Virus genome (UHGV): UHGV-0370164 | Direction: 5' to 3' (one strand) | Length of the DNA: 21,078 bases | Origin: a virus | Shown: piece by piece, positions 3,233 to 21,078 of the stretch | Position numbering within the stretch: the stretch's first letter is position 1 | Layout: each line of letters begins with the position of its first letter | Made by a program: the position numbers and the translations under genes | Notes under the pieces: generated by a model | Database searches by the model: none | Told to the model about the DNA's origin: nothing | The model's input: the letters and a program-made list of their open reading frames with translations, nothing else

Positions 3233-3247
3233 GTCACCTCCCTACTA

Positions 3248-3934: not shown

Positions 3935-3950
3935 TCAGGAGGCTAGTGGG

Positions 3951-4154: not shown

Positions 4155-4175
4155 AACAATGAACAGAGCATCATC

Positions 4176-4526: not shown

Positions 4527-4536
4527 CAGGTGCTTT

Positions 4537-4815: not shown

Positions 4816-4826
4816 AGGGTGTTGCG

Positions 4827-5179: not shown

Positions 5180-5265
5180 CCGCATAAATAAAACCCCAGC
5201 TTAAATAAAAAAATGTGAACACAATCTGCATTCGCAGAGGTATTCACACACACCAAGGAGGCGTA

Positions 5266-5684: not shown

Positions 5685-5792
5685 ACCTCAAGCCAGCAAT
5701 AACTACTCGTAGAACGTCAATTCCTGTAACCGACCGCTTCTGAGTTTTTTGGCAGGAAGCCTTCGCACATCTGTAGTAAAGAGAATTGCAGC

Positions 5793-6182
5793 ATGATTGA
5801 CGCTCATGACTTCACAAGATGGGTGCGCACACAGGACACCCGTCTGGCTCCCGTTCTTCAGGGATTATTTGATCTCTACATCCGTGGTCGTGACAACAGA
5901 GCACGCACCACAAAACCGGAGAATGCAGACACCCTTTATTTCACAGTAGACGACTGCTACCGCGTGGACTTCACACCACACGGGCTGGCGTTGCACTGCC
6001 TGACACCACACGGCGAATCACTGCTGGCGTATTACGACTCCCCGGCCTCCATATTTGCGGCAATGCTGGCGCATCGCACTGCTGGCGGGTGTGCCTCGCT
6101 GAGTGAATACTCCGCTGAATTTAACCGCCTTTCCGCCCTCTTCTCACAGGAGTGGCAGCGCGTGACGGGATACCAGCCATGA
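5793..6182 (+). CDS. Hypothetical early protein upstream of gpA
   Basis: 129-aa ORF; its stop overlaps the gpA start (ATGA at 6179-6182). Confidence 0.55.
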   Translation: MIDAHDFTRWVRTQDTRLAPVLQGLFDLYIRGRDNRARTTKPENADTLYFTVDDCYRVDFTPHGLALHCLTPHGESLLAYYDSPASIFAAMLAHRTAGGCASLSEYSAEFNRLSALFSQEWQRVTGYQP

Positions 6183-9019
6183 GTGCGTTTGCATGGAGCT
6201 GGAATGAACCACGGCCAGCCATTGATCCGGCCAGATTTACGGAGCGCAGGCAGGAAACTGAAACCGACCTGCAACGCGCCATCCGTTACTACCTTGAGGC
6301 AAACAAAAGGGCACAGGAAGAACAGGAAGCGAAGGAAGAAGCCTTTTTCGCACAATCCACCGTGGGTAAAAAACTCATGGCATCCCTTGAGGAAGCCGGA
6401 CAGCGTGAAAAGCTGGCACAAAGCATCATCAGCAAGCGTCAGGCAACAGAACAAGACCCGGTGGCCCGTGCTTTTGCCACACTGAAGGTGCTTCCCGTTT
6501 ATCTGCGTGAACCTCTGAGCCGCCACCTCTCTTTTCTGCGCAAGAAGCAGGAAGCCGATCGTCAGAAAGGCAAAAAGAGCTGGCAGGCTGAACGCTACGC
6601 GCGCGGAACCCTGCGCAAAATATTCGAACGTCTGGACCGCACCGACAGCCGCTGGCTGACACCGGGCTATCGCTCCCTTGCCGGACGCGAACGCCTGGAC
6701 GATTTGCTTTACCTGCCGCAGCTCAACAAACACCAGATACAGACGCTGGCCACCATGACGGCGGCGATGTTCAGTGGCACTTTTGAAAAACTCTGCGATG
6801 GCTTTGGCGCGACCGATGGCGAGCTGACCATGGATGTAACGCTGAAGGCGTATCAGATGCTGGCCCGCATGGCGTTACACCTGCACGCTATGCCTCCACA
6901 TTATGACGCTCTGACAACAGACAAAGACCGGAGGAATGAACCGGACACGGAGCTGCTGCCGGGCGCAATCCTTCGCCTGACCTGTGCGGAATGGTGGAAA
7001 CGCAAACTGTGGCTGTTACGTTGCGAGTGGAGAGAAGAACAACTCCGCGCCGCCTGTCTGGTTTCCAGAAAAACATCACCCTATCTGAGCCAGGACGCGT
7101 TAAGCGAGTTTCGCGCACAGCGCGAGAAAACACGCGATTTCCTGAAAAGTTTCATGCTGGAAAACGAAGACGGGTTCACGATTGATCTCGAGACAGTGTA
7201 TTACGCGGGAGTAAGTAACCCGATTCACCGTAAGGCAGAAATGATGGCCACCATGAAGGGGCTGGAACTTCTGGCCGAAGCCCGTGGCGACAGAGCGGTG
7301 TTTCTGACTGTCACCTGCCCGTCAAAATACCACGCCACAACAGAGAACGGTCATCCGAATCCCAAATGGAACGGGGCCACCATGCGCGACTCCAGCGATT
7401 ACCTGGTTAACACGTTTTTTGCGGCGGTCCGCAAGAAACTGAACCGCGACGGCCTGCGCTGGTATGGCATCCGCACGGTGGAGCCTCACCATGACGGCAC
7501 CGTGCACTGGCATATGATGGTCTTTGCTCATCCGGAAGAAATCGACACCATTGTGTCCCACACCCGCGATATTGCCATTCAGGAAGACCGCCACGAGCTG
7601 GGCAATGATATTACTCCGCGCTTTAAGGTGGAGTATGTCGACGGCTCAAAAGGCACGCCAACCAGCTACATCGCCACCTACATCGGAAAGAACCTGGACA
7701 GCCGCGCCGTGGATGGCATCGACCCGAAAACGGGCAAGCCACGCGTTGACCACGAAACCGGAAAATCAATGGCCGAGAGCGTGGAACGCGCCATCGGCTG
7801 GGCACGCCTTCACCGGGTCCGCCAGTTCCAGTTCTTTGGCATCCCCTCCCGTCAGGTATGGCGTGAACTCCGCCGCCTTGCCAGCCAGATGGCACGCAAC
7901 CCGGAAGGCCCACAACGGCTGAAGGATGATGCAATGGATGCGGTACTCGCTGCCGCTGATGCCGGATGTTTTGCCACCTACATTGAAAAACAGGGTGGCG
8001 TACTTGTTCCGCGCAAGGACTACCTGATTCGCACAGCCTACGACCTCGCAGATGAGCTGAACGATTACGGCGAACAGAGTGTACAGATTTACGGGATCTG
8101 GTCGCCATTCATCGGGGAATCCTCCCGTGTGTGCACGCATCCGGATAACTGGAAGCTGGTAAGACGTAAACCGGAAGCGGAAGACAGCGCCCGCGAAAAT
8201 GGTTTTGACCTTCAGGGCGGCCCTGCCGCCCCTTGGACTCGTGGCAATAACTGTCCCCGTGTACAGGAAACAGGCAACAACGGGACAGAACAGCCGGAAG
8301 AACGGCCAGCACCGTGGCCGCAGCTTCCTGACGGCGTTGAAGTAAATGAATGGATGCGCTCACTGAAACGGCACGAACGCCGGGCGCTGATGCGTTCGCT
8401 TCGTGACAAACAGGCAAAAAACAGCAGCGATGAAATGCAGAACTGGACACAGAGCCGCAAACAGCAGCGGCCTTTGCCTGATAACCACGAGTTACTCGCT
8501 AAAGAATGGCGGGAGTCTGCTGAATCTCTCGGCCTGCATATCGGTGAACAACAGATGCAGCACCTGTTACGGGGCGGCAGTCTGTACGTTGACGGCAGCA
8601 TCATTGCACCGCAGGGATTTGAAATTGTACGCAAACCGGATACCCGCCCGGACAGCCGAATCACGCAGCTCTGGCAGCGTCTGAGCCGTAATCATGGCGT
8701 AAGCAGCACGGAGATCCGCCATAACCCGGTCGCCAGCTATCTGGCACAGCTGGGGGCATCAGACCCTGAAGCCGCCGCACGCCTGGCATCCACACTTCAG
8801 CAGGACCAGAACACCATGAAAACACCCGTTACCGTGCTTTCTGACATGCTGCGCGCCATCCGCGACGCAGAGCACGCACAGAGAATCAGTGAAACCACTG
8901 AACGCGCCAGCCGCAAAGCAGACCTGCTGCGGGGTGGCCTGACCAGTGGAAACAAAAAACAGACAGAAACGGGACTCACGAATCCCGTAAATGAGCAAAA
9001 AACGCGCAGCGATATATGA
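6179..9019 (+). CDS. Rolling-circle replication initiator, P2 gpA-like
   Basis: 946 aa from the ATG at 6179; HUH-type motif (GTVHWHMMVF) and paired tyrosines (TSYIATYIGKN) typical of the gpA family; Q/R-rich C-terminal tail. Confidence 0.85.
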   Translation: MSAFAWSWNEPRPAIDPARFTERRQETETDLQRAIRYYLEANKRAQEEQEAKEEAFFAQSTVGKKLMASLEEAGQREKLAQSIISKRQATEQDPVARAFATLKVLPVYLREPLSRHLSFLRKKQEADRQKGKKSWQAERYARGTLRKIFERLDRTDSRWLTPGYRSLAGRERLDDLLYLPQLNKHQIQTLATMTAAMFSGTFEKLCDGFGATDGELTMDVTLKAYQMLARMALHLHAMPPHYDALTTDKDRRNEPDTELLPGAILRLTCAEWWKRKLWLLRCEWREEQLRAACLVSRKTSPYLSQDALSEFRAQREKTRDFLKSFMLENEDGFTIDLETVYYAGVSNPIHRKAEMMATMKGLELLAEARGDRAVFLTVTCPSKYHATTENGHPNPKWNGATMRDSSDYLVNTFFAAVRKKLNRDGLRWYGIRTVEPHHDGTVHWHMMVFAHPEEIDTIVSHTRDIAIQEDRHELGNDITPRFKVEYVDGSKGTPTSYIATYIGKNLDSRAVDGIDPKTGKPRVDHETGKSMAESVERAIGWARLHRVRQFQFFGIPSRQVWRELRRLASQMARNPEGPQRLKDDAMDAVLAAADAGCFATYIEKQGGVLVPRKDYLIRTAYDLADELNDYGEQSVQIYGIWSPFIGESSRVCTHPDNWKLVRRKPEAEDSARENGFDLQGGPAAPWTRGNNCPRVQETGNNGTEQPEERPAPWPQLPDGVEVNEWMRSLKRHERRALMRSLRDKQAKNSSDEMQNWTQSRKQQRPLPDNHELLAKEWRESAESLGLHIGEQQMQHLLRGGSLYVDGSIIAPQGFEIVRKPDTRPDSRITQLWQRLSRNHGVSSTEIRHNPVASYLAQLGASDPEAAARLASTLQQDQNTMKTPVTVLSDMLRAIRDAEHAQRISETTERASRKADLLRGGLTSGNKKQTETGLTNPVNEQKTRSDI

Positions 9020-9061
9020 AGCGCGCACAAAACAGGCAAAAACGGGATTTCAGAATCCCGT
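8969..9061. promoter_or_regulatory. Paired 20-bp palindromes flanking the gpA stop; candidate parC-like centromere/operator
   Basis: ACGGGACT-CACG-AATCCCGT (8969-8988) and ACGGGATT-TCAG-AATCCCGT (9042-9061), 73 bp apart, each in a similar ~28-bp context, directly upstream of parM. Confidence 0.4.
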
Positions 9062-9095
9062 AAACGATTAATTAATCAACATAAGGAAAACCGAC

Positions 9096-10055
9096 ATGAA
9101 AATTTACATCGACGACGGCTCCACCAACATCAAGCTGGCATGGACTGAGAACGGCGAACGCCGCAACGCCATCAGCCCGAACAGCTTCAAGTCGGAATGG
9201 TCTGCGCCGTTCGGTGGCTCGCAGCCTGCTAACTACATGCTTGATGGCGTGCGCTATGGTTTTGATCCGGTCAGCGATCGCTTTGTCCAGACGACCGACA
9301 CGCAATACCAGTACAGCGATGTGAATGTCATTGCCATTCATCACGCGCTGGTCAAATCAGACATCACGCCACAGGAAGTGGATGTGGTTGTTACCCTGCC
9401 ACTGAGCGAATATTTCGACACAAACGCACAGCCGGACATGGCCAACATCAACCGCAAAAAAGCGAACGTCATGCGCCCGGTGGAGTACCAGAACGGCGAA
9501 GCATTCACTATCCGTAACGTACGGGTTATGCCTGAATCCATTCCGGCTGGCTTTAAAGCACTGGCTGACATGAGTCCGTTTGAATCCCTGCTGATTGTGG
9601 ATTTGGGCGGAACCACGCTGGATGTGGCAAAGGTTCAGGGGCAACTGGCAGGTATCAGCCAGGTGTTTTGCGATCCACACGTAGGCGTTTCTCTTATGGC
9701 CGATGCCGTACTGTCGGTGATGGCCACTAACGGTATGCGCACCAGTCACCACATCGCCAATACCATTATCGAACATCGCCATAATGAAGCCTGGCTGCGC
9801 CAGCACATCCACAATGACGCGCATTACGCCAGCCTGATGGCGGTTATTCGTGAAAAGGAAGAAACACTGAAACAACGCGTGATCCGCGCGCTGGCGGTTT
9901 TTTCGGGTTACGGGCGGGTGATGGTTGTCGGTGGCGGGGCGGAGATTGTGGCACCCGCTATCCGCGAAGCCTGCGGAGTTAATGCGACTTTCATCGCGGA
10001 CGGGGTGCCACAGTTTGCTCTGGTTAATGGGCTGTACGCAATGGACAAGGAGTAA
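9096..10055 (+). CDS. parM: ParM/StbA-family actin-like partition ATPase
   Basis: 319 aa; matches plasmid R1 ParM as recalled along its length (IDDGSTNIKL, ISPNSFK, YSDVNV, VMPESIPAG, DLGGTTLD, GVSL, GGGAE, LVNG); AAGGAAAA Shine-Dalgarno. Confidence 0.9.
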   Translation: MKIYIDDGSTNIKLAWTENGERRNAISPNSFKSEWSAPFGGSQPANYMLDGVRYGFDPVSDRFVQTTDTQYQYSDVNVIAIHHALVKSDITPQEVDVVVTLPLSEYFDTNAQPDMANINRKKANVMRPVEYQNGEAFTIRNVRVMPESIPAGFKALADMSPFESLLIVDLGGTTLDVAKVQGQLAGISQVFCDPHVGVSLMADAVLSVMATNGMRTSHHIANTIIEHRHNEAWLRQHIHNDAHYASLMAVIREKEETLKQRVIRALAVFSGYGRVMVVGGGAEIVAPAIREACGVNATFIADGVPQFALVNGLYAMDKE

Positions 10056-10059
10056 ACCA

Positions 10060-10371
10060 ATGACGACACCAACCAGACGGATAAGTTTCTATCTGAAGCC
10101 CGCCGCCGTCAAGAACGAAGGAGAAGCATGCGCCTGGCTGGACAGCCTTACACCAGAAGCCCGCAAAAGCGGCCAACGCGTGGCTTTTCTGGCCGGGCTG
10201 GCACTTCTGAAGACGAATCCGGCAGAGGCTTACCGACTGGCCGCATGGGCTGATGATGAGATGTTACCTGTGACACAAATCAGCTCAAAAAAGTTTGAAG
10301 CACAGTCTGCACCAGTGGCTAAGATAACCAGCCAGATGGCTGGGAATATCCGGGCGTTATTTCCTGAGTAA
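10060..10371 (+). CDS. parR: ParR-like partition adaptor/repressor
   Basis: 103 aa from the ATG 4 nt after the parM stop; N-terminal RRISFYLKP...AC.WLDSL...ER...LAGLAL and C-terminal IRALFPE resemble R1 ParR as recalled. Confidence 0.8.
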   Translation: MTTPTRRISFYLKPAAVKNEGEACAWLDSLTPEARKSGQRVAFLAGLALLKTNPAEAYRLAAWADDEMLPVTQISSKKFEAQSAPVAKITSQMAGNIRALFPE

Positions 10372-10499
10372 AAGCATCTGCGCGAAAAATGCTCACGTTT
10401 ATAGAGACAGTATCATTCCATTTGGCACACTTACTTCAATAATCGATCTGTTAAACAAATAGATTGTCTATTATCTATCGATTAAAACGATCAATTATC

Positions 10500-10527
10500 T
10501 TGACAGTAATGTGCCTTTTTGTAAGAT
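10500..10527 (+). promoter_or_regulatory. Near-consensus sigma70 promoter
   Basis: TTGACA (10500-10505), 16-nt spacer, TAAGAT (10522-10527); imperfect palindrome AATAGAT...ATCTAT just upstream. Confidence 0.45.
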
Positions 10528-10633
10528 CGTTCGCATTGTGAGCGACAAGATAATTGCGCGGCATTGTCCATGCAAAACGCCCCAATAGCAGCAACTATTG
10601 GGGCGTAAAACTCGGTCGGACTCACTTAACCTG

Positions 10634-10719
10634 ATATGCGTGCCTTCCGAAGTAAATCAAAATGTGCGTCGTATATTTTATTGCTTACACGCACCTCTGT
10701 AAAGGCACGCATATTTTTC
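10634..10719 (+). terminator. Large stem-loop with U5 tract in the leader (attenuator/terminator or small RNA 3' end)
   Basis: Perfect 13-bp inverted repeat ATATGCGTGCCTT (10634-10646) / AAGGCACGCATAT (10702-10714) enclosing an inner GTGCGT/ACGCAC hairpin, followed by TTTTT (10715-10719). A 12-bp-stem hairpin lies at 10577-10606. Confidence 0.4.
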
Positions 10720-10735
10720 CTATGAGGTAAATAAA

Positions 10736-11005
10736 GTGCGGGCTAAAACAGGTATTTGCAAGAACCCTCATCGTTATAATCCAACATTTCTGTCTCTCCC
10801 TGAATATCAAGGACAAGAAGGTCGGCACAAATGCGCTGCCTGTGCTTTTGAGCTAGGCATAAAAGATGCGCTTGAAGGACGCGCTATGGCTCAGAATGAT
10901 TTAGTTTTAGCTAACATTCCGTTTAGCCAGGCTGGAACTGTAAGGCACAGAGATGCCTATGAAGCATATGTTCGTGGTTGGCGATTAATAAACAGCAACA
11001 ATTGA
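10736..11005 (+). CDS. Small Cys/His-containing protein, unknown function
   Basis: 89 aa; GTG start with GAGG Shine-Dalgarno 8 nt upstream; CKNPH...HKCAAC suggests metal binding; followed by a terminator. Confidence 0.5.
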   Translation: MRAKTGICKNPHRYNPTFLSLPEYQGQEGRHKCAACAFELGIKDALEGRAMAQNDLVLANIPFSQAGTVRHRDAYEAYVRGWRLINSNN

Positions 11006-11014
11006 TACTTTTGA

Positions 11015-11037
11015 AGCGCCGATAAGGCGCTTTTTTT
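11015..11037 (+). terminator. Intrinsic terminator
   Basis: AGCGCC / GGCGCT stem with GATAA loop followed by TTTTTTT, 10 nt after the stop at 11005. Confidence 0.7.
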
Positions 11038-11490
11038 GTTTGCACGATAGTGCACAAGTTTGCACAATTTTTTTGAACGACTTTTTGTACTTCCGGCCCG
11101 CGTGGTGGCTGGATCCGTCAAGGATCCGTACGTGCACAAAAAAACGCGTTTTTTCTGCGCGCAGGTGACGGGGGAACAGCCCGCGTTTCAGGGGGTAAAT
11201 AGCATCCCCTGAACGATGTCGCAGCGACACAACAGAATGGCTGTATTTCTCACGCTGAGCGTGAAAAAGACGTGAGGGCTTTTGATTTGATGGGTGGCAG
11301 ATAAGGCCGTCAAAATCGCACTGAGGCGGCGAGAACATGCAGTCAACGCGGTGGGATTGCGTAAGAGTCTGACCGCCGATGATGACAATAAGCAGAAAAG
11401 CGTCGTGAAATTATCTGATTGATACAGGAGCTGGAGAGTCGGGGCATAAATTTTTTATGCCCCGGCGAAGCAGCAGACAAGCGAAGCGCG

Positions 11491-12537
11491 TCAGGATGTG
11501 GGCTGGGTATCTAGCAGTGCGTAAGGGTTAAAGCGGATCACCTCTTCGCCAAGCCAGTCATTGATGTGCTTCATGGCCTCCATGACGGGCATCAGCTCGT
11601 TAATTGCGTAAACCCGCGCGGCCTTCTCCACATCACCAAACGCACTTTTTTCGCCCGGCATCGCCCCCATCAGTTGCGGCGGAACGCGGTGCGCAGCCAG
11701 CACATCATCACGGGATGCCGCCTTAACATTCATGAACTCATCCTTTGCAGTGATCTGCTGGAACGGCAAAATTTGCACACCTTCTTTGCCCCCGTTGGGC
11801 GCATGGATGAGTACGTTTTTAAACGCACCACCACCACGCGCGCCCTGTAACGTTTCTTTCAGGGAGTCCATGCTTTCGCGGTTTACCTGCGCTGCACCGA
11901 TGTAGATGATGCACCCGGCGTGGGATCCGTTGTCGTAGTACAGTTTTCTGAACATGTCCGCCGAATGAGAAAGGCTGGCCGAGAGTAATGCGCCAAGATA
12001 TTCCGGCATGCCGTAGATTTCCTGGTTAATATCCGGATTCATCAGGTGGCACACTTTGCCAGGGCGAAACTGGAACGCGTCCTTGCCATCCTGCACATAC
12101 CACCATGATTCAAGATCGCTTCCGCGTCGCATGTATTTCGCCAGGGCGTGCCGTAATTTAAGCGGTTCGCCGAGCATATTGCTTCTAAGCTCAAGGAATG
12201 CGTTACCGAACACAAACCAGTCCAGCGCCAGCGCCGAGAAATCCTGCCGGGAAAGCAGCGGGTGCGGGATGTAGCAACCGAGTAATACATTGCGCTTAAA
12301 GTAAAGCGCAGACTGATGCCAGGACGTTTGCCGGGCTGCTCTTGCCAGACCGTACCAGTCCACCGGGGTTTCATACCACCGTCCGTTATCAGCACAGTAC
12401 ATATTGTCCAGCAGGTCATGCCCGGTCAGGCGATAAGGACCATCAAATGTGAATGCACTGAGCGATGATTCTTTCCTGAGCGCATCAGCGAGATCAATGC
12501 GTGAACTCATGCGCACTTTTTTATTTTTTCTGCTCAT
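11491..12537 (-). CDS. Portal protein, P2 gpQ-like
   Basis: 348 aa, right size for P2 Q; directly downstream of and overlapping the terminase gene on the same strand. Called from context and size. Confidence 0.85.
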   Translation of the reverse strand: MSRKNKKVRMSSRIDLADALRKESSLSAFTFDGPYRLTGHDLLDNMYCADNGRWYETPVDWYGLARAARQTSWHQSALYFKRNVLLGCYIPHPLLSRQDFSALALDWFVFGNAFLELRSNMLGEPLKLRHALAKYMRRGSDLESWWYVQDGKDAFQFRPGKVCHLMNPDINQEIYGMPEYLGALLSASLSHSADMFRKLYYDNGSHAGCIIYIGAAQVNRESMDSLKETLQGARGGGAFKNVLIHAPNGGKEGVQILPFQQITAKDEFMNVKAASRDDVLAAHRVPPQLMGAMPGEKSAFGDVEKAARVYAINELMPVMEAMKHINDWLGEEVIRFNPYALLDTQPTS

Positions 12538-14396
12538 CAGAACTCCATAACCGTGAAACGCTCGTTTTCTCCTTCGCCGCCAATCGGTTCGTTAATGACA
12601 GCAAGCATGGTTGCCCACGCAAGGTCGCCGTGGCTGATCCCCCTCGCGCGGTCCGTTTCGTAAGTGATAAAGCCGCCCGGTGTTTTCACCTTACGCACGG
12701 CGTTAAAGGCCGCGACCAGCTCGCGTTCGGCGCGATCGTATTCCCACCGCCCGGCACGCATTATTTGCAGCATTTTCAGTACCAGCGACCGTTTTGATGA
12801 CAGCGTGAAGGTGTACGGAATAGCAGCAGGGAAAAACCGTTTCACTATCTGATAAACAGCCTCCCCGTTCCCGCCCGTCACATCAATGCCGATGTGTTCC
12901 ACGTTGTAGCGATACGTGAACTCTTCAATGACTCTGGCCTGTTCTTCAAACTCCAGCCCCTGAACGCGTCGCGTCTCCACCGTTCGAAAACGGCCACCAA
13001 GAACAGCCGGAGGAACCACCACGGACACAGCGCCGCTGTCGCCGTTGCCACTACTGCCGTTTGCGTCATACCCAATCCATACCGGACGATTCCCCATCGG
13101 GCGGGGAGCAAAAGGTTTCCAGTCTTTCCAGTCGTCGTATCCGTCAACACCGCAGCCAATCAGGATATTCAGGTTAAATGCCGATTCCCCTTCGCGGACA
13201 AACTCACACATATAGAGATTGAGGAACTCGTCTTCGGTGTTTTCATCACGAATTTCGTCGATATCGGTGTGTTTCCAGCCGTGATTGACCACATCTTCCA
13301 GCGTGACAATTTGCCGCCACGTCCGGTCAGGGCAGATAAGCCCGTTATGCAGAGTTTTCCAGTCCACAGAAAAACGCTGGCGTTTATGCGTGGCCTTTTT
13401 CTCGTTCCAGCGGTCGCCGTTCCAGTAGGCGTATGCCTCGTGCGTTTCGGTGGATGGCGTGGAGAAGTAGGTGCGCCGCAGTCCGCTGAGGGTTGCCATA
13501 GCGCCAGCCACCTTGCGCAGTTCAGCAAAGCGACTGACCCAGAAAAATTCATCAAAATAAAAATTGCCCGTATAGGACTGTGCCGACGCAGCAGAAGTGC
13601 CGAGAAAATGCAGCTCTGCGCCGTTGGAGAGGATGATTTTATCGCCCCCTTTCAGCTCCACATCAACTTCAGCCGCGGCCTTCTGAATAATGCTTTTAAA
13701 CTGGAACGCCTGACGACGCGACGCAGACAAAAAAATCTGGTTACGCTGGTAAGGTTGCGCCACATCGTCACGCAGCGCCATCAGCAGAGCTTCCTGTGCA
13801 AAATACCAGGTCGCCCCAATCTGTCGGGATTTCAGGATCATCCTGTTACGTATCCCGGCTTCCCTGCAAAGGGTCAGGGAGTCAAACCAGCCCCGCTGAT
13901 GCCACTCCAGCCTGCTGATGATTTTTTCCCGCAGTGCGGCAATCTGTTCCGGCGTGAAATGATTTTTGAGTTTTTTCGCCCGGCCTTTCTTTCCTGTGAC
14001 CGTCGCATCCGGCTGGCCATCATGCAGTTTTTTAAGCTGCCGGGTCAGCAGGTCTATTTCCTTAAAGTCACCGCCTGTTTTATTCTGTTTTTCAGTAAGC
14101 TGGATGAGGCGCGCATCGATGGACTGCGTGACACGCTGCACGGGTGGCGTTTCATCCCACTGGTCGCGTTTTTTCCACGCATAAATCGTGTTCGGGTTTA
14201 TTCCCATCAGACGTGATATTTCTGCGGGCGGATAATCGAACCCACACAGAATATGGCCATCAGCGACATACAGGCGGCGCGCTGTGAGTCGTTCACCATC
14301 AGCGAAGGTGGGCGCAATGAGTAATTCACTGTTACCACCATCAGCCAGCAGTTTCATGCGTTGTGCCGAAGCTGTCGGAACGCGCATTACAGACAT
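12537..14396 (-). CDS. Terminase large (ATPase) subunit, P2 gpP-like
   Basis: Long minus-strand ORF with a deviant Walker A-like segment (ILKSRQIGATWYFAQEA). Start uncertain: GTG at 14432 or ATG at 14396/14387/14357, none with a good Shine-Dalgarno; all overlap the gpI start. Confidence 0.8.
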   Translation of the reverse strand: MSVMRVPTASAQRMKLLADGGNSELLIAPTFADGERLTARRLYVADGHILCGFDYPPAEISRLMGINPNTIYAWKKRDQWDETPPVQRVTQSIDARLIQLTEKQNKTGGDFKEIDLLTRQLKKLHDGQPDATVTGKKGRAKKLKNHFTPEQIAALREKIISRLEWHQRGWFDSLTLCREAGIRNRMILKSRQIGATWYFAQEALLMALRDDVAQPYQRNQIFLSASRRQAFQFKSIIQKAAAEVDVELKGGDKIILSNGAELHFLGTSAASAQSYTGNFYFDEFFWVSRFAELRKVAGAMATLSGLRRTYFSTPSTETHEAYAYWNGDRWNEKKATHKRQRFSVDWKTLHNGLICPDRTWRQIVTLEDVVNHGWKHTDIDEIRDENTEDEFLNLYMCEFVREGESAFNLNILIGCGVDGYDDWKDWKPFAPRPMGNRPVWIGYDANGSSGNGDSGAVSVVVPPAVLGGRFRTVETRRVQGLEFEEQARVIEEFTYRYNVEHIGIDVTGGNGEAVYQIVKRFFPAAIPYTFTLSSKRSLVLKMLQIMRAGRWEYDRAERELVAAFNAVRKVKTPGGFITYETDRARGISHGDLAWATMLAVINEPIGGEGENERFTVMEF

Positions 14397-14849: not shown

Positions 14850-16982
14850 ATGAGTACCACAACACGAAAATTTAAAACCGTTATCACCGATACAGGTGCA
14901 AAAAAATTAGCTCAGGCAGCCGCGCCAGATGGTAAGCCTGTCCGCCTGACTCATATGGCCGTGGGCGACGGTGGCGGCGCGTTGCCCACACCAGACAGTA
15001 AGCAGACCCGTCTGGTGCATGAGGTGTGGCGACACACTGTTAATCGCGTCATCCTGGACGCAACACATCAGAACCGCATTATTGCGGAGCTGGTTATTCC
15101 TCCAGAAACGGGCGGATTCTGGATCCGGGAAATTGGTGTGTTTGATGAGCACGGCGATTTAATCGCGGTGGGCAATACTGCCGAAAGTTACAAGCCAGCC
15201 GTTGCCGAAGGGTCCGGACGTGCACAAACATTTCGCACCATTCTGACCGTATCCAGCACTGCCACTGTGGCGCTTACCGTGGATAACACCATGGTGATGG
15301 CCACAGTGGATTACGTGGATAACAAACTGAAAGAGCATGAACAGTCACGATGTCACCCGGATGCCTCGCTGACCGCAAAAGGCTTTGTTCAACTCAGTAG
15401 CGCCACTAACAGCGATTCTGAAACGCTGGCTGCAACGCCGAAAGCGGTTAAGGTCGCGTATGATCTTGCTAACGGAAAATATACAGCGCAGGATGCCACA
15501 ACAGCGCGAAAAGGCCTTGTCCAGCTTAGTAGTGCAACCAACAGTACATCTGAAACGCTGGCGGCAACATCAAATGCAGTAAAAGCTGCCTATGACAATG
15601 CTGAAAAACGTCTGCAGAAAGCTAAGAATGGTGAGGATATCTCTGATAAAGACACCTTTACGAAAAATATCGGTGCCTGCCGTGCATATAGTGCAGAGCT
15701 GAATATTGGTGGAGATAGTGAAGCATGGACAACTGCGCAGTTGATTTTTTGGCTAGAGAGTCAGGGGGCATTTAACCATCCTTACTGGATGTGCAAAGGC
15801 TCATGGGCTTATGCAAATAATAAGGTCATTACAGATACAGGTTGCGGAAGTATTTGTCTTGCAGGTGCTGTTGTGGAAGTTATTGGCACCCGCGGCGCAA
15901 TGACCATACGCATTACCACACCGAGTACATCCAGCGGTGAAGGCATCCCTAATGCTCAATTTACTTATATTAATCATGGTGATGCTTATGCTCCTGGCTG
16001 GCGAAGGGACTATAACTCCAGGAATAAGCCAACAGCATCAGAGATCGGGGCGTTACCGTCAGATGGGACAGCAGTATCGTCAGTTAATCTGGCTTCAAAA
16101 GGTCGGCTGACCGCCCTGACAGATAATATGCAGGGGGCCACAGGTCTGGAGTTATACGAGGCGTATAACAACGGATATCCAACAACGTATGGAAATATCA
16201 TTCACCTGAAAGGGATGACAGCCGTTGGCGAAGGCGAATTACTCATCGGCTGGAGTGGTATAAGCGGTGCTCATGCTCCGGCATTTATTCGTTCACGACG
16301 GGATACGACCGACGCAAACTGGTCGCCGTGGGCGCAGCTTTACACCTCGGCTCATCCTCCTGAAGAGTTTTATCCAGTCGGTGCACCGATTCCGTGGCCA
16401 TCAGATACCGTTCCGTCTGGTTATGCCCTGATGCAGGGGCAGACTTTTGACAAATCTGCATACCCGAAACTTGCAGTCGCTTATCCGTCAGGCGTTATTC
16501 CTGATATGCGTGGCTGGACGATTAAGGGCAAGCCCGGCAGTGGTCGTGCCGTATTGTCTCAGGAACAGGACGGCATTAAATCGCACACCCACAGCGCCAG
16601 CGCATCCAGTACGGATTTGGGGACGAAAACCACATCGTCGTTTGATTACGGTACTAAAACGACCAGTTCATTTGATTACGGCACAAAAACTACGAATAGC
16701 GCTGGAAATCATTCACACAATATACCTGTTGGTCACACTGGCGCGGGGAATGGTGTATCAGCCGGTTATAACGCTGCGTTAGGTACTGGTACCACGTCGA
16801 GCGCAGGCGAGCATGCTCACAATGTATATATCGGTGCCCATAACCACACTATCGGCATTGGTGCTCATGCCCATTCTGTCATTATTGGTCCCCACGGACA
16901 CACCATCACCGTTAACGCTACGGGTAACGAAGAAAACACCGTAAAAAACATCGCATTTAACTATATTGTGAGGCTTGCATAA
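14850..16982 (+). CDS. Tail fibre protein, P2 gpH-like, with His-rich distal domain
   Basis: 710 aa; conserved N-terminal fibre domain ([48 protein letters not shown]) and duplicated [17 protein letters not shown] segment; C-terminus has HxH-type repeats. Confidence 0.9.
16620..16694 (+). repeat. Tandem 30-bp coding repeat in the tail-fibre gene
   Basis: 2.5 copies encoding [10 protein letters not shown] / [10 protein letters not shown] / GTKTT; copies differ at synonymous sites. Confidence 0.6.
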
Positions 16983-17560
16983 TGACATTCAGAATGAGTG
17001 AACACTCACGGACCATAAAAATTTATAATCTACTGACCGGAACCAATGAGTTTATTGGTGAAGGTGATGCATACATTCCACCTCATACAGGTCTGCCTGC
17101 AAACAGTACCGATATTGCCCCGCCAGATATTCCGGCTGGCTTCGTGGCCGTTTTCAACAGTGATGAGGCATCGTGGCATCTCGTTGAAGACCATCGGGGT
17201 AAAACGGTTTATGACGTGGCATCAGGGGACTCGTTATTTATTTCTGAACTCGGTCCATTACCGGAAAATGTTACCTGGTTGTCGCCGTATGGAGAGTATC
17301 AGAAGTGGAACGGCACATCCTGGGTGAAAGATGCAGAAGCAGAAAAACTGTTTCGGATAAGGGAGGCGGAAGAAACAAAAAACAGCCTGATGCAGGTAGC
17401 CAGCGAGCATATTGCGCCACTTCAGGATGCCGTAGATTTGGATATTGCAACGGAGGAAGAGGCATCGTTACTGGCTGCATGGAAGACATACCGGGTATTG
17501 TTGAATCGTGTTAATACAGCGGTAGCAGCGGATGTTGAGTGGCCAGTCGCCCCACAATAA
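16982..17560 (+). CDS. Tail fibre assembly chaperone, gpG/Tfa-like
   Basis: 192 aa; start overlaps the H stop (TAATG); position and size fit a fibre assembly protein. Confidence 0.8.
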
Positions 17561-17564
17561 AGAG

Positions 17565-17598
17565 AAAAAGCCATCGATTGAAATATAGATGGCTTTAT
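17565..17598. terminator. Bidirectional hairpin between convergent genes
   Basis: AAAGCCATC (17567-17575) / GATGGCTTT (17588-17596) 9-bp stem flanked by an A-run upstream and T-rich sequence downstream. Confidence 0.5.
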
Positions 17599-17603
17599 GT
17601 ACT

Positions 17604-18161
17604 CTATTTATACAATACAACACCGCTCTTTTTAGTTATATATGTGCAGTTCGATGGTATATCTTTATTTATAAAAGACATTGCACCTATTTTTACATTA
17701 TCCCCAATTTTACGTGATAATCCAATGATGCAACAATTAGCTCCGATATCAACGTTACTACCAATTTTTACTCTTGAACCAGGCATGTCACCATCTATCT
17801 GTCCAATGGTAGTATTCTGTCGTAACACCAGATTTTCACCAGCATCAACAGCAAAATGAACAACAATTCCAGCATGATGGGGAATTGTTAACCCTTTTCC
17901 AATATTTGCGCCCAATCCAATTTCACAACCAAATTTGTTAATTATTTTACTGTTTAACTTTTTGGCTGCTTTCTTATGTAATTTATTACCATTAATATAC
18001 ATTTCGTTAGCCAACCGCCACCAGAAAAGGAAATTCCGGTTACGCTGTTTTTTCTCTCTTAAAAGCCTCCAGATATCCATACGTTTCCGCCGAATTACTT
18101 CATATTTCCAGAAGTTTTTTAAATTAGTAGAGTCCCCAAATAAAACAAAGTGAATTGCCAT
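17604..18161 (-). CDS. Hexapeptide-repeat acetyltransferase (WcaB/CysE-like), cargo gene
   Basis: Pattern FLFWWRLAN...FGCEIGLGANIG...TIPHHAGIVV...IGSNVDIGANCCIIG... fits the left-handed beta-helix acetyltransferase family. AT-rich. Start uncertain (GTG 18209, ATG 18161 or ATG 18080). Confidence 0.7.
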   Translation of the reverse strand: MAIHFVLFGDSTNLKNFWKYEVIRRKRMDIWRLLREKKQRNRNFLFWWRLANEMYINGNKLHKKAAKKLNSKIINKFGCEIGLGANIGKGLTIPHHAGIVVHFAVDAGENLVLRQNTTIGQIDGDMPGSRVKIGSNVDIGANCCIIGLSRKIGDNVKIGAMSFINKDIPSNCTYITKKSGVVLYK

Positions 18162-18332
18162 TAAGTAAGACAGCACGATAATCTCCTTAATTATTATTTC
18201 AGACCACACATATTATAAGGTTAAGAGATTATAAAATCCTGTTGTTTGTTATTCAAAAACAATTTTCTGAGAAGGACATACAACAGCAAGTCGCCAGTCA
18301 CCTTCATCAGGAAATTGGCGACATACGTTAAA

Positions 18333-18827
18333 TCAGAGCAGCCCCTTAACTGAGCTGGTCGCGCTATTAAGGGATGATGTCACCTTATCTTTGAAGCCGG
18401 ACAACATATCGCTGAACGATGAGGATTGCAGGCGCTCCCGCAAATCCTCATCACAGCGTTCAAGAGTCAGTGAAAATTCTATCTTTTTCGCCTTACCGTA
18501 GCGATCAAACTCGGAGCGGGTCGTATTCGTTTCGGTCAGGACATACATGCCGTAAATCTGCCCGACGCCATCAATCAGAGGCCAGGGCCGTCCTGTATAC
18601 GCCTGCGTGGTCAGCAGAGACAGCGACACTTCGCCACCTGTAATTTCAGGATAAAGCACACCAGAAAGAACGATGCGATCATCACCTGCACCGATATACT
18701 GCCAGCTTGCTGAACGGTTAACGCGTTCATTTTTCACATGCCGCCAGCTTTTGTTTTGCTGTAACTGCTGATGCGGCAGCGTGCGCAGCTCAAAAACAAA
18801 CATGCCATAGATCATCATCATGGCCAT
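18333..18827 (-). CDS. Tail protein, P2 gpU-like
   Basis: 164 aa immediately downstream of the tape-measure gene; GGAG Shine-Dalgarno between T stop and start; N-terminus MAMMMIYGMFVFEL...WRH resembles gpU as recalled. Confidence 0.75.
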   Translation of the reverse strand: MAMMMIYGMFVFELRTLPHQQLQQNKSWRHVKNERVNRSASWQYIGAGDDRIVLSGVLYPEITGGEVSLSLLTTQAYTGRPWPLIDGVGQIYGMYVLTETNTTRSEFDRYGKAKKIEFSLTLERCDEDLRERLQSSSFSDMLSGFKDKVTSSLNSATSSVKGLL

Positions 18828-18833: not shown

Positions 18834-21078
18834 TCAATCTTTATCGTAAAAACTGCCACGCCCGGCACGGGCGCGCCGTTCCATTTCTGCCCTGACCATT
18901 TCACCGACCAGTTTCGCCAGTTCGCGGGGATTCTGCGTAACAACGTTATGCAGATGAACATGAATTTCACCGCCAAATCTGGAGACAGCAGGCTCCCGAT
19001 TACGGGAAGCTGCAGGAACTGATGCCACTGGCGATCGTATGGCCTCCGCCACCGGGCGGGAGCTGGCCGCAACAACAGGGACCAGCGCCGGAGGCAGCGG
19101 AGCCGGGACTACGGGTGTGATATTAATTGCGGGGGCAGGCTTACTGACCTGCGCAATCTTCCGCTCCTGCCACTCCCCACGAACAGCAAGTGCGCGGGGC
19201 AGGTTCTTAAAGACAATATCGCCAGGGCCAATGCGTTTTTTCGTCTCATCAACCAGCTTACCTGTGTTATCAGCAATTTTGCTGAGTCTGCGTAGCGTCC
19301 CGGTATTGCTGTCTGTGAGCGGTTTGTTGTCTTTGGGTTTATCACCTCCGGTGCCATTGCCATTTTCCACAGGCTTCGGCGGATTGATTTTCGCCAGGTC
19401 CCCCTGAAGTAAGGCAACCTTATCCTGAAGAATGGCCGCACGCTGTGCGTCTTCGATTTTCTTGCGCGCCCTTTCCGCTTCATCCGGAAGGACGCCAAGT
19501 TTTTCAAGTATCCACGCCAGCGTATCCAGTAGCATTTTTGCAGGTGTCAGAACAAGTTGTAACGCACCGCCAAGAACGTTACCGAATATCTCGCCAGCAC
19601 TGGTACATTTATCCAGCGTTTCCTTGCTGGACTCCATCGGTGACAGCAGCGATTTAAACCAGTTAAACACCTGGCTGATCCCGCTTCCGATTGCGTCAAA
19701 AACAGGGCCAAACCGTTCAAAGGTTTCACGCAACGGGTTCAGCCTTTCCATAATCCCGCTGAACACCCCGGCAAAAAATGCCCTGATGGGATCCCAGTAT
19801 TTCCAGATAAGGACGGCAGCTCCGGCAAGCGCAGCCACGATAAGACCAACCGGACTGAACAGCGCCCCGATAGCGCCTCCCAGTAAAGAAACGGAACCCG
19901 TCACCATTCCCCATAGTGCTGGCAGGACCCTGACAGCATTCATTGATCCGGTCAGGAGAGAAAAACCAAGACGCAGTTTTGCCAGCGGACCAGCAAGCAC
20001 ACCAATAGCCAGCGACAACGAGCCAACCGTTGCAGTCATTGCCAGCAACGCACCGCCTGCTATCAGTAGCTGGCGCGTCAGTGCCGGATGGGCCTGCGCC
20101 AGCGCCGTCACCCTTGATACCACCCGCGTGAGCCACTGCGTGACAGAACGCAGCGGACCGTCAATCAGATCTGCAATGCGGATGCGCAACCCTTCCCATG
20201 CACTGCCGAGTGATTTCAGATCGCCGTCAAGGTTGTTGGCCATAACCTTTGCTGTGCGTTCAGCCTCACCGCGCGCGCCTTCAAGTTCTTTTCTCAGTTT
20301 GGGTAAGGAACCGTCACCCACTGCATCAACGAGCGCCATAAACGATGTGAAAGCCTCTTCTCCGGCAATGTCCTTAAAGAACGATACCCGGTCAACTTCC
20401 CCGTATTTGCGGGTGGCTTTATAAAGGTCGGCCAGCACATCCTCCATCGGGCGCATTTTGCCCCCGGCATCCGAGACGGACACGCCCAGCTCTTTCAGAG
20501 CTTCTGCCGCCGCCTTTGGCGGTGATGCCAGACGAGCCAGGCTGGCACGCATTGCCGTCCCGGCATCACTCCCTCTGATGCCCATATTCGCCAGCACACC
20601 AGCCATCGCTGCGGCCTGCTCCAGCGATATTCCCAGCTTACCCGCCACCGGACCTGCATATTTCATGGTTTCGCCCAGTGCGCGAAGGTCAGTGTTGGTA
20701 CGGGTAAACGCTGCGGTGAGTGTGTCACCGACCCGGTCCATCTGGTCAGCAGAAAGGCCGAACTGCGTCAGGATATTTGAGCCAATATCTGCCGTCTCGC
20801 CGAGATCCATACCGCCAGCCGTTGCCATGCTCAGCACTCCGGGAAGCGCAGCCTGAATGGCCTGCGGTGTGAAGCCTGCCATTGCAAGAAATGCCTGCCC
20901 ACTGGCGGCATCGCCTGCGGTGAACTGCGTTTCAGAGCCAAGTTTTAACGCCTGCTCACGCAGCGCCTTAAACTGCGGGCTGTTCTGGTCGATTCGCGTC
21001 AGCGCCTGAACGCGGGACATCTCTTTGCCGAACCCGATCGCGGGCTGCAAAAAACGCCCGGCAGCATAGCCGCCCGCC
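18834..21078 (-). CDS. Tail tape-measure protein, gpT-like (5' end beyond window)
   Basis: Over 740 aa, Ala/Gly-rich with a hydrophobic central segment; frame stays open to the window edge. Confidence 0.85.
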   Translation of the reverse strand, partial: AGGYAAGRFLQPAIGFGKEMSRVQALTRIDQNSPQFKALREQALKLGSETQFTAGDAASGQAFLAMAGFTPQAIQAALPGVLSMATAGGMDLGETADIGSNILTQFGLSADQMDRVGDTLTAAFTRTNTDLRALGETMKYAGPVAGKLGISLEQAAAMAGVLANMGIRGSDAGTAMRASLARLASPPKAAAEALKELGVSVSDAGGKMRPMEDVLADLYKATRKYGEVDRVSFFKDIAGEEAFTSFMALVDAVGDGSLPKLRKELEGARGEAERTAKVMANNLDGDLKSLGSAWEGLRIRIADLIDGPLRSVTQWLTRVVSRVTALAQAHPALTRQLLIAGGALLAMTATVGSLSLAIGVLAGPLAKLRLGFSLLTGSMNAVRVLPALWGMVTGSVSLLGGAIGALFSPVGLIVAALAGAAVLIWKYWDPIRAFFAGVFSGIMERLNPLRETFERFGPVFDAIGSGISQVFNWFKSLLSPMESSKETLDKCTSAGEIFGNVLGGALQLVLTPAKMLLDTLAWILEKLGVLPDEAERARKKIEDAQRAAILQDKVALLQGDLAKINPPKPVENGNGTGGDKPKDNKPLTDSNTGTLRRLSKIADNTGKLVDETKKRIGPGDIVFKNLPRALAVRGEWQERKIAQVSKPAPAINITPVVPAPLPPALVPVVAASSRPVAEAIRSPVASVPAASRNREPAVSRFGGEIHVHLHNVVTQNPRELAKLVGEMVRAEMERRARAGRGSFYDKD

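What the first reader, a model, noticed from the sequence alone, without database searches (positions are those of the whole stretch)
17565..18332. AT-rich acetyltransferase cargo gene between G and U
A WcaB/CysE-like hexapeptide-repeat acetyltransferase sits in strongly AT-rich DNA downstream of U and convergent with G, bounded by a bidirectional hairpin, in the tail cluster where P2 carries accessory genes (Z/fun). Plausible roles are lysogenic conversion (O-antigen or capsule acetylation) or an anti-phage function.
Basis: partly seen in the sequence, partly recalled or inferred. Interest (0 to 1): 0.55.

Follow-up and report, generated by a model that had tools for sequence, protein, structure and literature searches.

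The report
Prophage acetyltransferase cargo beside tail fibre
A small, intact, self-contained acetyltransferase gene rides as cargo next to the tail-fibre genes of a P2-like E. coli prophage; it is mislabelled "serine acetyltransferase" in databases and most likely acetylates the cell's lipopolysaccharide, which is an ordinary kind of prophage cargo but has never been tested.

Summary
A 190-aa left-handed beta-helix (LbH) acetyltransferase is encoded at 17604-18176 (-), starting at GTG. It lies in the lowest-GC stretch of the window (34% against 50%), convergent with tail-fibre assembly gene G and downstream of U. It has its own promoter-like site, Shine-Dalgarno sequence and flanking hairpins, so its anatomy is that of a moron (self-contained prophage cargo gene).

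The sequence is in about 10% of complete E. coli genomes (O157:H7, O111, O103, O104:H4). It also sits inside the invertible tail-fibre segment of P1-like phage-plasmids, where a 1.8-kb block (fibre tip, tfa, acetyltransferase) is 94% identical to the window. The gene is under purifying selection (omega 0.19).

It is not a true CysE. Scores are far below cut-off, the N-terminal domain and C-terminal tail are missing, and the serine-binding residues are lost. Only the catalytic dyad is kept.

Chromosomal relatives (35-43% identity, same motifs) lie in LPS core (waa, hldE-msbA) or O-antigen-type clusters. Prophage relatives are paired with LPS-type genes (GT25, GT9, HtrL). Across the family the gene is usually convergent with a tail-fibre chaperone.

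Best reading: cytoplasmic O-acetylation of LPS, probably the core, for lysogenic conversion or superinfection exclusion. This is inferred and untested. It is a new member of a known kind, of moderate interest.

The parts
17604..18176 (-). LbH (hexapeptide-repeat) acetyltransferase CDS, 190 aa, GTG start; identical to RefSeq WP_000954196.1; member of phrog_2154
   Evidence: ORF; annotation; phrog_2154 E 1e-87; AF2 pLDDT 96.5; start supported by the SD and by homologue N-termini; omega 0.19 against the JL22 allele
18183..18188 (-). Shine-Dalgarno AAGGAG, 6 nt upstream of the GTG start
   Evidence: read directly from the minus-strand sequence
18228..18256 (-). sigma-70 promoter-like site, TTGAAT-17 nt-TATAAT (10 of 12 matches), about 50 nt upstream of the start codon
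   Evidence: a consensus match only, not shown to be active
17567..17596 (.). hairpin between the convergent stops of G and the acetyltransferase (9-bp stem, 12-nt loop); U-tail on the minus strand
   Evidence: z -4.4 (+) and -5.6 (-), 0 of 200 shuffles as stable
18290..18322 (-). hairpin just after the U stop codon, followed by a U-rich stretch; separates the U transcript from the acetyltransferase promoter
   Evidence: -21.3 kcal/mol, z -3.9
16982..17560 (+). tail-fibre assembly gene G (tfa), convergent neighbour; part of the 1.8-kb block shared with P1-like phages
   Evidence: Caudo_TAP 1e-39; block 16369-18168 is 94.2% identical to JL22
16369..16981 (+). C-terminal ~204 codons of tail fibre H (distal tip); start of the block shared with P1-like JL22
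   Evidence: omega 0.10
18333..18827 (-). tail gene U, upstream flank on the same strand
   Evidence: Phage_P2_GpU 5.5e-39

Best explanation
The gene is a prophage moron (self-contained cargo gene) encoding a soluble, presumably trimeric, LbH acetyl-CoA-dependent O-acetyltransferase. I infer that it is transcribed from its own promoter in the lysogen. I infer that it acetylates a sugar of nascent lipopolysaccharide at the cytoplasmic face of the inner membrane, before export. The acceptor is most likely the lipid A-core oligosaccharide and less likely an Und-PP-linked O-unit. The altered LPS would change the surface seen by LPS-binding phages, giving superinfection exclusion or host-range effects, and possibly the surface seen by the host immune system.

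Shown here:
- the gene is intact and conserved under purifying selection;
- it has moron anatomy;
- the fold is LbH, with the catalytic Glu85/His100 dyad kept;
- it is not a CysE;
- its relatives lie in LPS clusters and next to tail-fibre modules.

Inferred:
- expression in the lysogen;
- the acceptor;
- the phenotype.
For: Anatomy of an independent transcription unit: promoter-like site, SD, terminator hairpins, 34% GC, opposite strand to G.

The slot is variable. P88 carries an alternative tail-fibre (tfa', alt. fibre) segment and a DNA invertase there. P0008-type prophages carry the acetyltransferase plus a SAM methyltransferase.

Intact and selected: omega 0.19. It is present in 530 of 5426 complete E. 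coli genomes.

Catalytic residues are kept: Glu85~Asp143, His100~His158, Gln120~Gln178 of CysE. The best-scoring of the two K-12 enzymes compared by profile (CysE, WcaB) is WcaB, a colanic-acid acetyltransferase (35% over 104 columns). The naming of the next enzyme's substrate, WcaA's, implies WcaB acts on an Und-PP-linked intermediate.

Full-length relatives with the same signature motifs (FWWRLA, IRQNTTIG, IGDNVxIGAMSF) lie in these clusters:
- a bona fide waa core cluster in Leminorella: GT4, GT8, WaaY, MptE-like, acetyltransferase, WaaL;
- the hldE-msbA-kinase-GT8 LPS core region of five Pseudomonas/Halopseudomonas genomes;
- directly after a WaaL-type ligase (L024);
- an O-antigen-type cluster (L016).

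Prophage relatives are paired with LPS-type genes in the same cargo region next to the tail fibre:
- GT25, 'LPS biosynthesis protein', 123 bits, in Xenorhabdus;
- a GT9 heptosyltransferase-like gene in Morganella;
- HtrL/YibB, 258-265 bits, whose K-12 homologue is the divergent neighbour of rfaD-waaFCL.

Synteny: in 14-16 of 22 assessable diverse viral contigs (45-93% identity), a tfa and fibre follow the acetyltransferase, in most cases immediately and convergently. The same holds in phiNP, yong2 and JL22.

The same allele occurs in hosts with chemically different O antigens: O157:H7, O111, O103, O104:H4. This fits a conserved acceptor such as the core.
Against: - There is no biochemical or genetic test of any family member. 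Two papers list it only as cargo of unknown function (PMC9603915; PMC6456863).
- The LPS-cluster relatives are only 35-43% identical, and acceptor specificity can change at that distance.
- About 6 of the 15 closest chromosomal loci are orphan islands with no LPS genes.
- The fibre tip and tfa of the window occur without the acetyltransferase in most E. coli genomes (4441 of 5426). The enzyme is therefore not strictly tied to one receptor-binding module.
- Adjacency to tail fibres could simply reflect a permissive insertion site.
- To my knowledge (from memory, not checked here), O-acetylation of E. coli core oligosaccharides has not been described.
Confidence: 0.5

Rival explanations
1. It acetylates another surface or exported glycan rather than LPS, for example colanic acid (as WcaB does), ECA, PNAG or a capsule. 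The consequence would be the same kind of lysogenic conversion.
For: WcaB scores better than CysE, the other K-12 enzyme compared by profile. EpsC and WcaB are top NCBIfam hits. Colanic acid and ECA are common to all the host serotypes.
Against: All scores are far below family cut-offs (53.9 against 194.65 for WcaB). None of the relatives examined lies in a colanic-acid, capsule or EPS cluster; they lie in LPS core or O-antigen clusters or on mobile elements.
Confidence: 0.2
2. It is a genuine serine O-acetyltransferase, as annotated by RefSeq. It would make O-acetylserine to boost cysteine supply or switch on the CysB regulon for the prophage's or host's benefit.
For: RefSeq and phage records name it so. 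The closest solved structures are all CysE. The catalytic dyad is conserved.
Against: - TIGR01172 scores 61.8 bits against a cut-off of 210.65; PRK11132 scores 36.9 against 397.
- Only CysE residues 112-236 align, so most of the N-terminal hexamerisation domain and the C-terminal CysK-binding/feedback tail are absent.
- The serine/cysteine-binding residues listed in PMC9547175 are not kept. Asp157 is Pro99, Arg192 is Ser134, His193 is Arg135, and Asp92 has no counterpart. This loop is variable across the family.
- Relatives sit in LPS clusters, not cys operons.
Confidence: 0.07
3. It is an anti-phage or stress function that does not act on a glycan. Examples are acetylation of a small molecule, an antibiotic or xenobiotic, or a phage or host protein or nucleotide, as part of a defence or toxin-like system.
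For: The equivalent P2 slot (Z/fun) and the A-Q slot are known to hold defence genes (general knowledge of P2 fun/Z, tin and old). hicAB toxin-antitoxin genes sit beside the homologue in phiNP and Morganella. An Abi gene lies near the ESSI2_ev040 homologue.
Against: There is no PADLOC hit at E <= 0.1. The window protein gives no match to Vat or CatB xenobiotic acetyltransferase models at E <= 0.01. It is a single gene with no partner conserved across contexts. The family's chromosomal members are in LPS biosynthesis clusters.
Confidence: 0.13
4. It is a hitch-hiker with no current function. It would be carried along because recombination within tfa and tail-fibre genes moves the flanking DNA with it.
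For: The 1.8-kb block moves as a unit between P2-like and P1-like elements. A tfa fragment lies next to the homologue in L093. Truncated copies exist (P0017, 141 aa).
Against: Omega is 0.19, similar to tfa at 0.16. Catalytic residues and long motifs are nearly invariant across 99 homologues. The gene is listed as a CDS, not a pseudogene, in every E. coli record shown. It is retained in a prophage copy that has lost its head and baseplate genes.
Confidence: 0.05

Closest known systems
WcaB (E. coli colanic-acid O-acetyltransferase; TIGR04016)
   Same: Small soluble CysE-like LbH enzyme. The Glu/His catalytic pair and the xIRxxxTIG motif are shared. 35% identity over 104 aligned columns. It acts on a lipid-linked sugar in the cytoplasm, which is the mechanism proposed here.
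   Different: Scores 53.9 bits against a cut-off of 194.65. The window protein has a longer N-terminal helical region with the FWWRLA motif. It is not in the colanic-acid cluster and is phage-borne.
CysE serine O-acetyltransferase
   Same: Closest solved fold (TMq 0.6-0.76). Catalytic dyad and Gln178 equivalent are conserved.
   Different: Most of the N-terminal domain, the C-terminal tail and the serine-binding residues are missing. Scores are far below the family cut-offs.
NeuO of prophage CUS-3 (E. coli K1 polysialic-acid O-acetyltransferase) - comparison from established knowledge
   Same: An LbH-family O-acetyltransferase carried as prophage cargo near the tail (receptor-binding) genes, which modifies a host surface polysaccharide.
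   Different: Not a detectable close relative: CUS-3 does not appear among the listed tblastn phage hits at E <= 1e-5. NeuO is phase-variable through 5' heptanucleotide repeats; no tandem repeat is present here. The hosts here are not K1 strains.
Oac/GtrC-type phage O-antigen acetyltransferases (Sf6 Oac, BTP1 GtrC; acyltransferase-3 family)
   Same: Lysogenic conversion by acetylating LPS, encoded by temperate phages and giving superinfection exclusion.
   Different: Those are polytopic membrane proteins acting after export (PMC9558356 abstract, listed). This is a soluble cytoplasmic LbH enzyme of unrelated fold.
P2 Z/fun accessory locus
   Same: Opposite-strand cargo directly after the tail-fibre assembly gene. 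Homologues at 64-66% identity sit exactly between tfa and sheath in canonical P2-like contigs.
   Different: The gene is unrelated to Z/fun. In this window the far flank is U, because the tail block lies on the opposite strand to H-G (P88 layout).

Membership tests
CysE serine O-acetyltransferase (TIGR01172 / PRK11132) | Score at or above the curated family cut-off | tested here: not met
   61.8 bits against 210.65; 36.9 against 397
CysE serine O-acetyltransferase (TIGR01172 / PRK11132) | N-terminal alpha-helical SATase domain and C-terminal CysK-binding/feedback tail | tested here: not met
   hhalign covers only CysE residues 112-236 of 273. The protein is 190 aa and ends 11 residues after the aligned LbH.
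CysE serine O-acetyltransferase (TIGR01172 / PRK11132) | Catalytic His158/Asp143 dyad | tested here: met
   His100 and Glu85 align to them. The acidic residue and the His are nearly invariant in 99 homologues.
CysE serine O-acetyltransferase (TIGR01172 / PRK11132) | Serine/cysteine-binding residues Asp92, Asp157, Arg192, His193 (PMC9547175) | tested here: not met
   Pro99, Ser134 and Arg135 stand at the aligned positions. Asp92 has no counterpart. The loop is variable in the family.
WcaB colanic-acid acetyltransferase (TIGR04016 / PRK10191) | Score at or above the cut-off, and location in the colanic-acid (wca) cluster | tested here: not met
   53.9 against 194.65 and 54.8 against 196. The gene is in a prophage; the K-12 wca cluster is elsewhere.
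Left-handed beta-helix (hexapeptide) acyltransferase superfamily | LbH fold with hexapeptide repeats | tested here: met
   Pfam Hexapep is sub-threshold (24.2 against 27). The AF2 model (pLDDT 96.5) has a beta-strand coil spanning 84-179, and all top Foldseek hits are LbH acetyltransferases.
phrog_2154 (phage protein family, unknown function) | Full-length match to the family profile | tested here: met
   E 1.3e-87, residues 8-185 against profile positions 3-181 of 185
Moron (autonomous prophage cargo unit) | Own promoter and terminator, atypical composition, inserted between phage genes, absent from close relatives | tested here: met
   Promoter-like site and hairpins. GC 34% against 50%. P88 lacks it at the same slot. 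Promoter activity was not tested.
Known anti-phage defence systems (PADLOC-DB 2.0) | Match to any defence-protein model | tested here: not met
   0 families at E <= 0.1
Acyltransferase-3 phage O-antigen acetyltransferases (Oac/GtrC) | Polytopic membrane AT3 domain | tested here: not met
   No AT3 Pfam match. The model is a soluble helical plus LbH protein.
NeuO-type phase-variable prophage LbH O-acetyltransferase | 5' tandem heptanucleotide repeats giving phase variation | tested here: not met
   No tandem repeats in 17500-18400
LPS (core) O-acetyltransferase - proposed function | Acetyl transfer to an LPS sugar | not testable with these tools
   Only contextual support: relatives in waa, hldE-msbA or O-antigen clusters, and pairing with GT25, GT9 and HtrL genes

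The most novel reading that the evidence does not exclude
phrog_2154 and its chromosomal relatives form an uncharacterised family of cytoplasmic LPS-core O-acetyltransferases. P2-, P1- and Mu-like myoviruses would carry them, sometimes together with core-type glycosyltransferases (GT25, GT9) or HtrL, next to their LPS-binding tail fibres. These would act as a receptor-masking cassette that moves with tfa by recombination. That would make LPS-core remodelling, rather than O-antigen remodelling, a widespread and unrecognised form of lysogenic conversion in about 10% of E. coli, including the major STEC lineages.
Probability: 0.35. Interest if true: 0.6.

Novelty: new member of a known kind. Interest (0 to 1): 0.4.

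Why it matters
The gene is in roughly one in ten complete E. coli genomes, including O157:H7, O111, O103 and O104:H4, and in P1-like phage-plasmids. It is mislabelled there as a cysteine-biosynthesis enzyme.

If it acetylates LPS, three things follow:
- it would change phage susceptibility, which is relevant to phage therapy and biocontrol of STEC;
- it could affect LPS-based typing or immune recognition;
- it would add a soluble LbH enzyme class, and possibly the LPS core as a target, to the list of phage lysogenic-conversion mechanisms, which is dominated by membrane AT3 and Gtr systems.

The pairing with GT25, GT9 and HtrL genes in other prophages offers a directly testable set of candidate LPS-remodelling cassettes.

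Tried and rejected
- ATG 18161 as the start. It was rejected in favour of GTG 18176. In JL22 the ATG codon is ATA, while the extended N-terminus, reached from an upstream start (GTG in the window, ATG in JL22), is conserved, and AAGGAG precedes the GTG in the window.
- First AF2 run with 14 sequences. The LbH part was poor (pLDDT 65), so I reran with 99 sequences.
- Strict co-inheritance with one receptor-binding tip. Rejected: the H tip and tfa occur in 4441 of 5426 genomes, mostly without the acetyltransferase.
- Invertible-segment remnant around the gene. No gix/cix-like site and no meaningful flanking inverted repeats were found.
- Defence-system membership. No PADLOC hit.
- Phase variation. 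No tandem repeats.
- Literature. The protein accession appears in no paper. The CP-933T proteomics paper gave nothing specific. No paper was found describing a hexapeptide LPS-core O-acetyltransferase.
Only L013-L027 were used as family members. The JL22 and L023 translations were mis-framed and were ignored.
- Not attempted: the 1.84-billion-protein HMM search, finding the EDL933/Sakai locus tag to mine expression data, and correlating the gene with the host's core type.

Full report
**What is there**

The window is a P2-like E. coli prophage with the P88/Xuanwuvirus layout. Tail fibre H (14850-16982, +) and tail-fibre assembly gene G (16982-17560, +; Caudo_TAP 1e-39) run rightwards. U (18333-18827, -; Phage_P2_GpU 5e-39) and the tape-measure gene T (18834-21050, -) run leftwards. 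Intact copies in O111 11128 and SCU-105 show the full order I-H-G, then the acetyltransferase, then U-T-E-FII-FI on the other strand, then D and ogr.

Between G and U lies one ORF on the minus strand, ending at 17604. I place its start at GTG 18176, giving 190 aa. An AAGGAG lies 6 nt upstream. The resulting N-terminus VLSYLMAIHF matches the 69%-identical homologue P0008 (MLSYLMAIHF). In the P1-like phage JL22 the internal ATG is ATA, while the extended N-terminus, reached from an upstream start codon, is kept. This CDS is RefSeq WP_000954196.1, annotated 'serine O-acetyltransferase'.

**Is it more than chance?**

- The interval 17565-18332 has 34.0% GC. It is lower than every 768-bp window sampled (mean 49.8%, sd 6.1%).
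- A 9-bp hairpin (17567-17596) sits between the two convergent stop codons. It is far more stable than shuffles on both strands (z -4.4 and -5.6). It carries a U-tail on the acetyltransferase strand.
- A second hairpin (18290-18322) follows the U stop.
- Between that hairpin and the start codon lies a TTGAAT-17-TATAAT site (18256-18228).

The unit therefore has promoter, SD, gene and terminator in foreign-looking DNA. That is moron anatomy. P88 itself carries an alternative tfa'/fibre segment and a DNA invertase in the same slot. P0008-type prophages carry an acetyltransferase, a tfa fragment and a SAM methyltransferase. The slot is clearly a variable cargo position.

**What the protein is**

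- Pfam Hexapep is just sub-threshold. NCBIfam lists EpsC, CysE and WcaB at 54-76 bits against cut-offs of 150-210.
- phrog_2154 (unknown function) matches full-length at 1e-87. PADLOC gives nothing.
- With a 99-sequence alignment, AlphaFold2 gives pLDDT 96.5, with five N-terminal helices (2-82) and an LbH coil (84-179).
- The top 50 Foldseek PDB hits are serine acetyltransferases, at TMq 0.6-0.76 and 19-33% identity.

A profile alignment to K-12 CysE covers only residues 112-236 of CysE.
- Glu85, His100 and Gln120 align with the catalytic Asp143/His158 and with Gln178.
- The serine/cysteine-binding residues named in PMC9547175 are not kept. Asp157 becomes Pro99, Arg192 becomes Ser134, His193 becomes Arg135, and Asp92 has no counterpart. 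That loop is variable across the family.
- The hexamerisation domain and the C-terminal tail are absent.

The database name is therefore not supported. Of the two K-12 enzymes compared by profile, WcaB aligns better than CysE (35% identity over 104 columns). WcaB is a colanic-acid acetyltransferase. The annotated name of the next enzyme's substrate, WcaA's, implies that it acts on an Und-PP-linked intermediate.

**Distribution and mobility**

- The 768-bp interval is found in 530 of 5426 complete E. coli genomes, and 510 of them hold at least 80% of it. Hosts include O111, O103, O157:H7 and O104:H4. There are 66 places on plasmids.
- The plasmid copies are P1-like phage-plasmids. In JL22 the gene lies inside the invertible C segment, between tfa and U'.
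- Window 16369-18168 (the last ~204 codons of H, all of G, and the acetyltransferase up to its start codon) is 94.2% identical to JL22 over 1800 bp. The fibre tip, chaperone and acetyltransferase have therefore moved as one block between a P2-like and a P1-like element.
- Nei-Gojobori omega values between the two copies are 0.10 (H tip), 0.16 (tfa) and 0.19 (acetyltransferase). This indicates purifying selection.
- The fibre tip and tfa alone are far more widespread (4441 genomes, mostly lambdoid stf/tfa at about 90%). The enzyme is not bound to one receptor-binding module.

**Family context, the key evidence**

The family has about 337 detectable members with long conserved motifs: FWWRLA, E-I-x-LGA, His, IRQNTTIG and IGDNVxIGAMSFxNKDIP.

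Mobile-element members:
- In 24 diverse viral contigs (45-93% identity), 14-16 of the 22 assessable have a tfa and tail fibre after the gene, in most cases immediately and convergently. Several others have a DUF4376 protein close upstream (Pfam-confirmed in L181), the domain also seen on the gene that follows a tail fibre in L007 and L009.
- The same arrangement is seen in Citrobacter phiNP, Hafnia yong2 and Buttiauxella.
- In L170-L173 the gene lies between tfa and sheath, the canonical P2 Z/fun slot.
- Other members sit at prophage ends next to integrases, or on an EPEC EAF-like plasmid.

Chromosomal members (35-43% identity, full length, same motifs) are in LPS biosynthesis regions:
- Leminorella grimontii has GT4, GT8+GT8C, WaaY, MptE-like, the acetyltransferase and a convergent WaaL. 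This is the outer-core part of a waa cluster, comparable to K-12 waaB-O-J-Y-Z-U and waaL.
- Five Pseudomonas/Halopseudomonas genomes have it beside hldE, msbA, an APH-type kinase and, in three of the five, a GT8-like gene.
- L024 has it directly after a WaaL-type ligase.
- L016 has it between a GT2 and WbpA/WbpB-like genes, which is an O-antigen-type cluster.
- About six of the fifteen loci are orphan islands.

Three prophage cargo regions pair the acetyltransferase with LPS-type genes next to the tail fibre:
- Xenorhabdus: acetyltransferase plus GT25, 'LPS biosynthesis protein', 123 bits.
- Morganella: hicAB, acetyltransferase, then a GT9 heptosyltransferase-like gene. It scores 32.6 bits against GA 22, and its best NCBIfam hits are LPS heptosyltransferases I/III/RfaQ.
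- L174 and L176: acetyltransferase convergent with an HtrL/YibB gene of 258-265 bits. Its K-12 homologue htrL is the divergent neighbour of rfaD-waaF-waaC-waaL.

**Mechanism proposed**

The enzyme is a soluble LbH O-acetyltransferase that uses acetyl-CoA and the Glu85/His100 dyad. I infer that it acetylates a sugar of LPS while the molecule is still at the cytoplasmic face. The lipid A-core is the most likely acceptor, because the same allele works in hosts with unrelated O antigens and because several relatives sit in core clusters. An Und-PP-linked O-unit is the less likely alternative. The lysogen would then display altered LPS.

P2-, P1- and Mu-type fibres are known to use LPS core (established knowledge, not tested here). 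The location next to the fibre module therefore fits a receptor-masking, superinfection-exclusion role.

- Shown: gene integrity, selection, anatomy, fold, catalytic residues, non-CysE status and genomic contexts.
- Inferred: expression, acceptor and phenotype.
- I give about 0.5 to LPS acetylation overall and about 0.35 to the core specifically.

**Rivals**

- Another glycan such as colanic acid, ECA or a capsule (0.2). No relative was found in such a cluster.
- A genuine serine acetyltransferase (0.07). It fails the score, domain and residue tests.
- A non-glycan defence or xenobiotic function (0.13). There is no PADLOC hit, no Vat/CatB hit for the window protein and no conserved partner, although toxin-antitoxin or Abi genes are sometimes nearby.
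- A functionless hitch-hiker (0.05). This is contradicted by omega 0.19 and the near-invariant motifs.

**Known or new**

The gene is annotated in hundreds of genomes and belongs to a PHROG. Two papers list it as cargo of unknown role: 'the reason for the presence ... is still unknown' for JL22 (PMC9603915), and 'Fitness' cargo of phiNP (PMC6456863).

Prophage-encoded acetylation of surface polysaccharides is a known kind of lysogenic conversion (Oac/GtrC; NeuO of CUS-3). This is therefore a new, uncharacterised member of a known kind.

Three points come out of this analysis and were not found in the searched literature:
- the evidence that the CysE label is wrong;
- the link of the family to LPS core clusters and to core-type glycosyltransferase partners;
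- the tfa-linked cassette shared between P2-like and P1-like elements.

Interest is moderate (0.4).

Noticed in passing
window 1-1091 and 968-14235: The window is circularly permuted relative to the integrated prophage in E. coli SCU-105. Bases 1-1091 match the right prophage end (past hok/gef, up to the tRNA-Leu side), and 968-14235 match the left end (int onwards). The 124-bp overlap (968-1091) looks like the att repeat, so the window reads like an excised or circular attP junction. No intact tRNA is present.
   Followed up: partly
window 14231-14235 (junction): There is a 9.7-kb deletion relative to SCU-105 and O111 11128. It removes the first 53 nt of terminase P, the capsid, lysis and baseplate genes, and most of J, and it fuses P to the region just upstream of gpI. 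This copy cannot build heads or baseplates, yet the acetyltransferase is intact.
   Followed up: partly
window 9096-10371: ParM (9096-10055) and a plasmid partition/stability protein lie between replication gene A and portal Q. This is the position of the P2 tin/old accessory hotspot. It is unusual cargo for an integrated P2-like prophage.
   Followed up: no
window 15625-16016: The tail-fibre gene H is mosaic. This segment is 88% identical, in inverted orientation, to the alternative fibre segment of P88 and of P1-like JL22. The window has no invertase and no gix/cix-like site, which suggests a frozen remnant of an invertible fibre system.
   Followed up: partly
window 217-612 and 2205-3232 (minus strand): Two more low-GC (37-39%) cargo-like stretches. 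One is a 131-aa ORF near att. The other is a DUF2511 protein plus a membrane protein between int and the repressor.
   Followed up: no
L101 5001-6393; L107 4068-7194; L174 912-2445 and L176 3074-4610: Prophage cargo regions in Xenorhabdus, Morganella and two IMG/VR contigs pair an acetyltransferase homologue with GT25, a GT9 heptosyltransferase-like gene, or an HtrL/YibB gene, right next to the tail fibre. These are candidate LPS-core remodelling cassettes.
   Followed up: partly
L096-L098 5001-5594: A 51%-identical homologue sits on an EPEC EAF-like plasmid, a few kb downstream of a cluster that includes prepilin peptidase (Peptidase_A24) and SLT genes, which I read as bfp-like. It is surrounded by IS66 and transposase remnants and EspF/chaperone fragments.
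   Followed up: no
L093 5617-6605: In a 69%-identical variant of the same G/U slot, the acetyltransferase is followed by an 87-aa tfa fragment and a class-I SAM methyltransferase before the full tfa. This is evidence for repeated cassette insertion by recombination within tfa.
   Followed up: no
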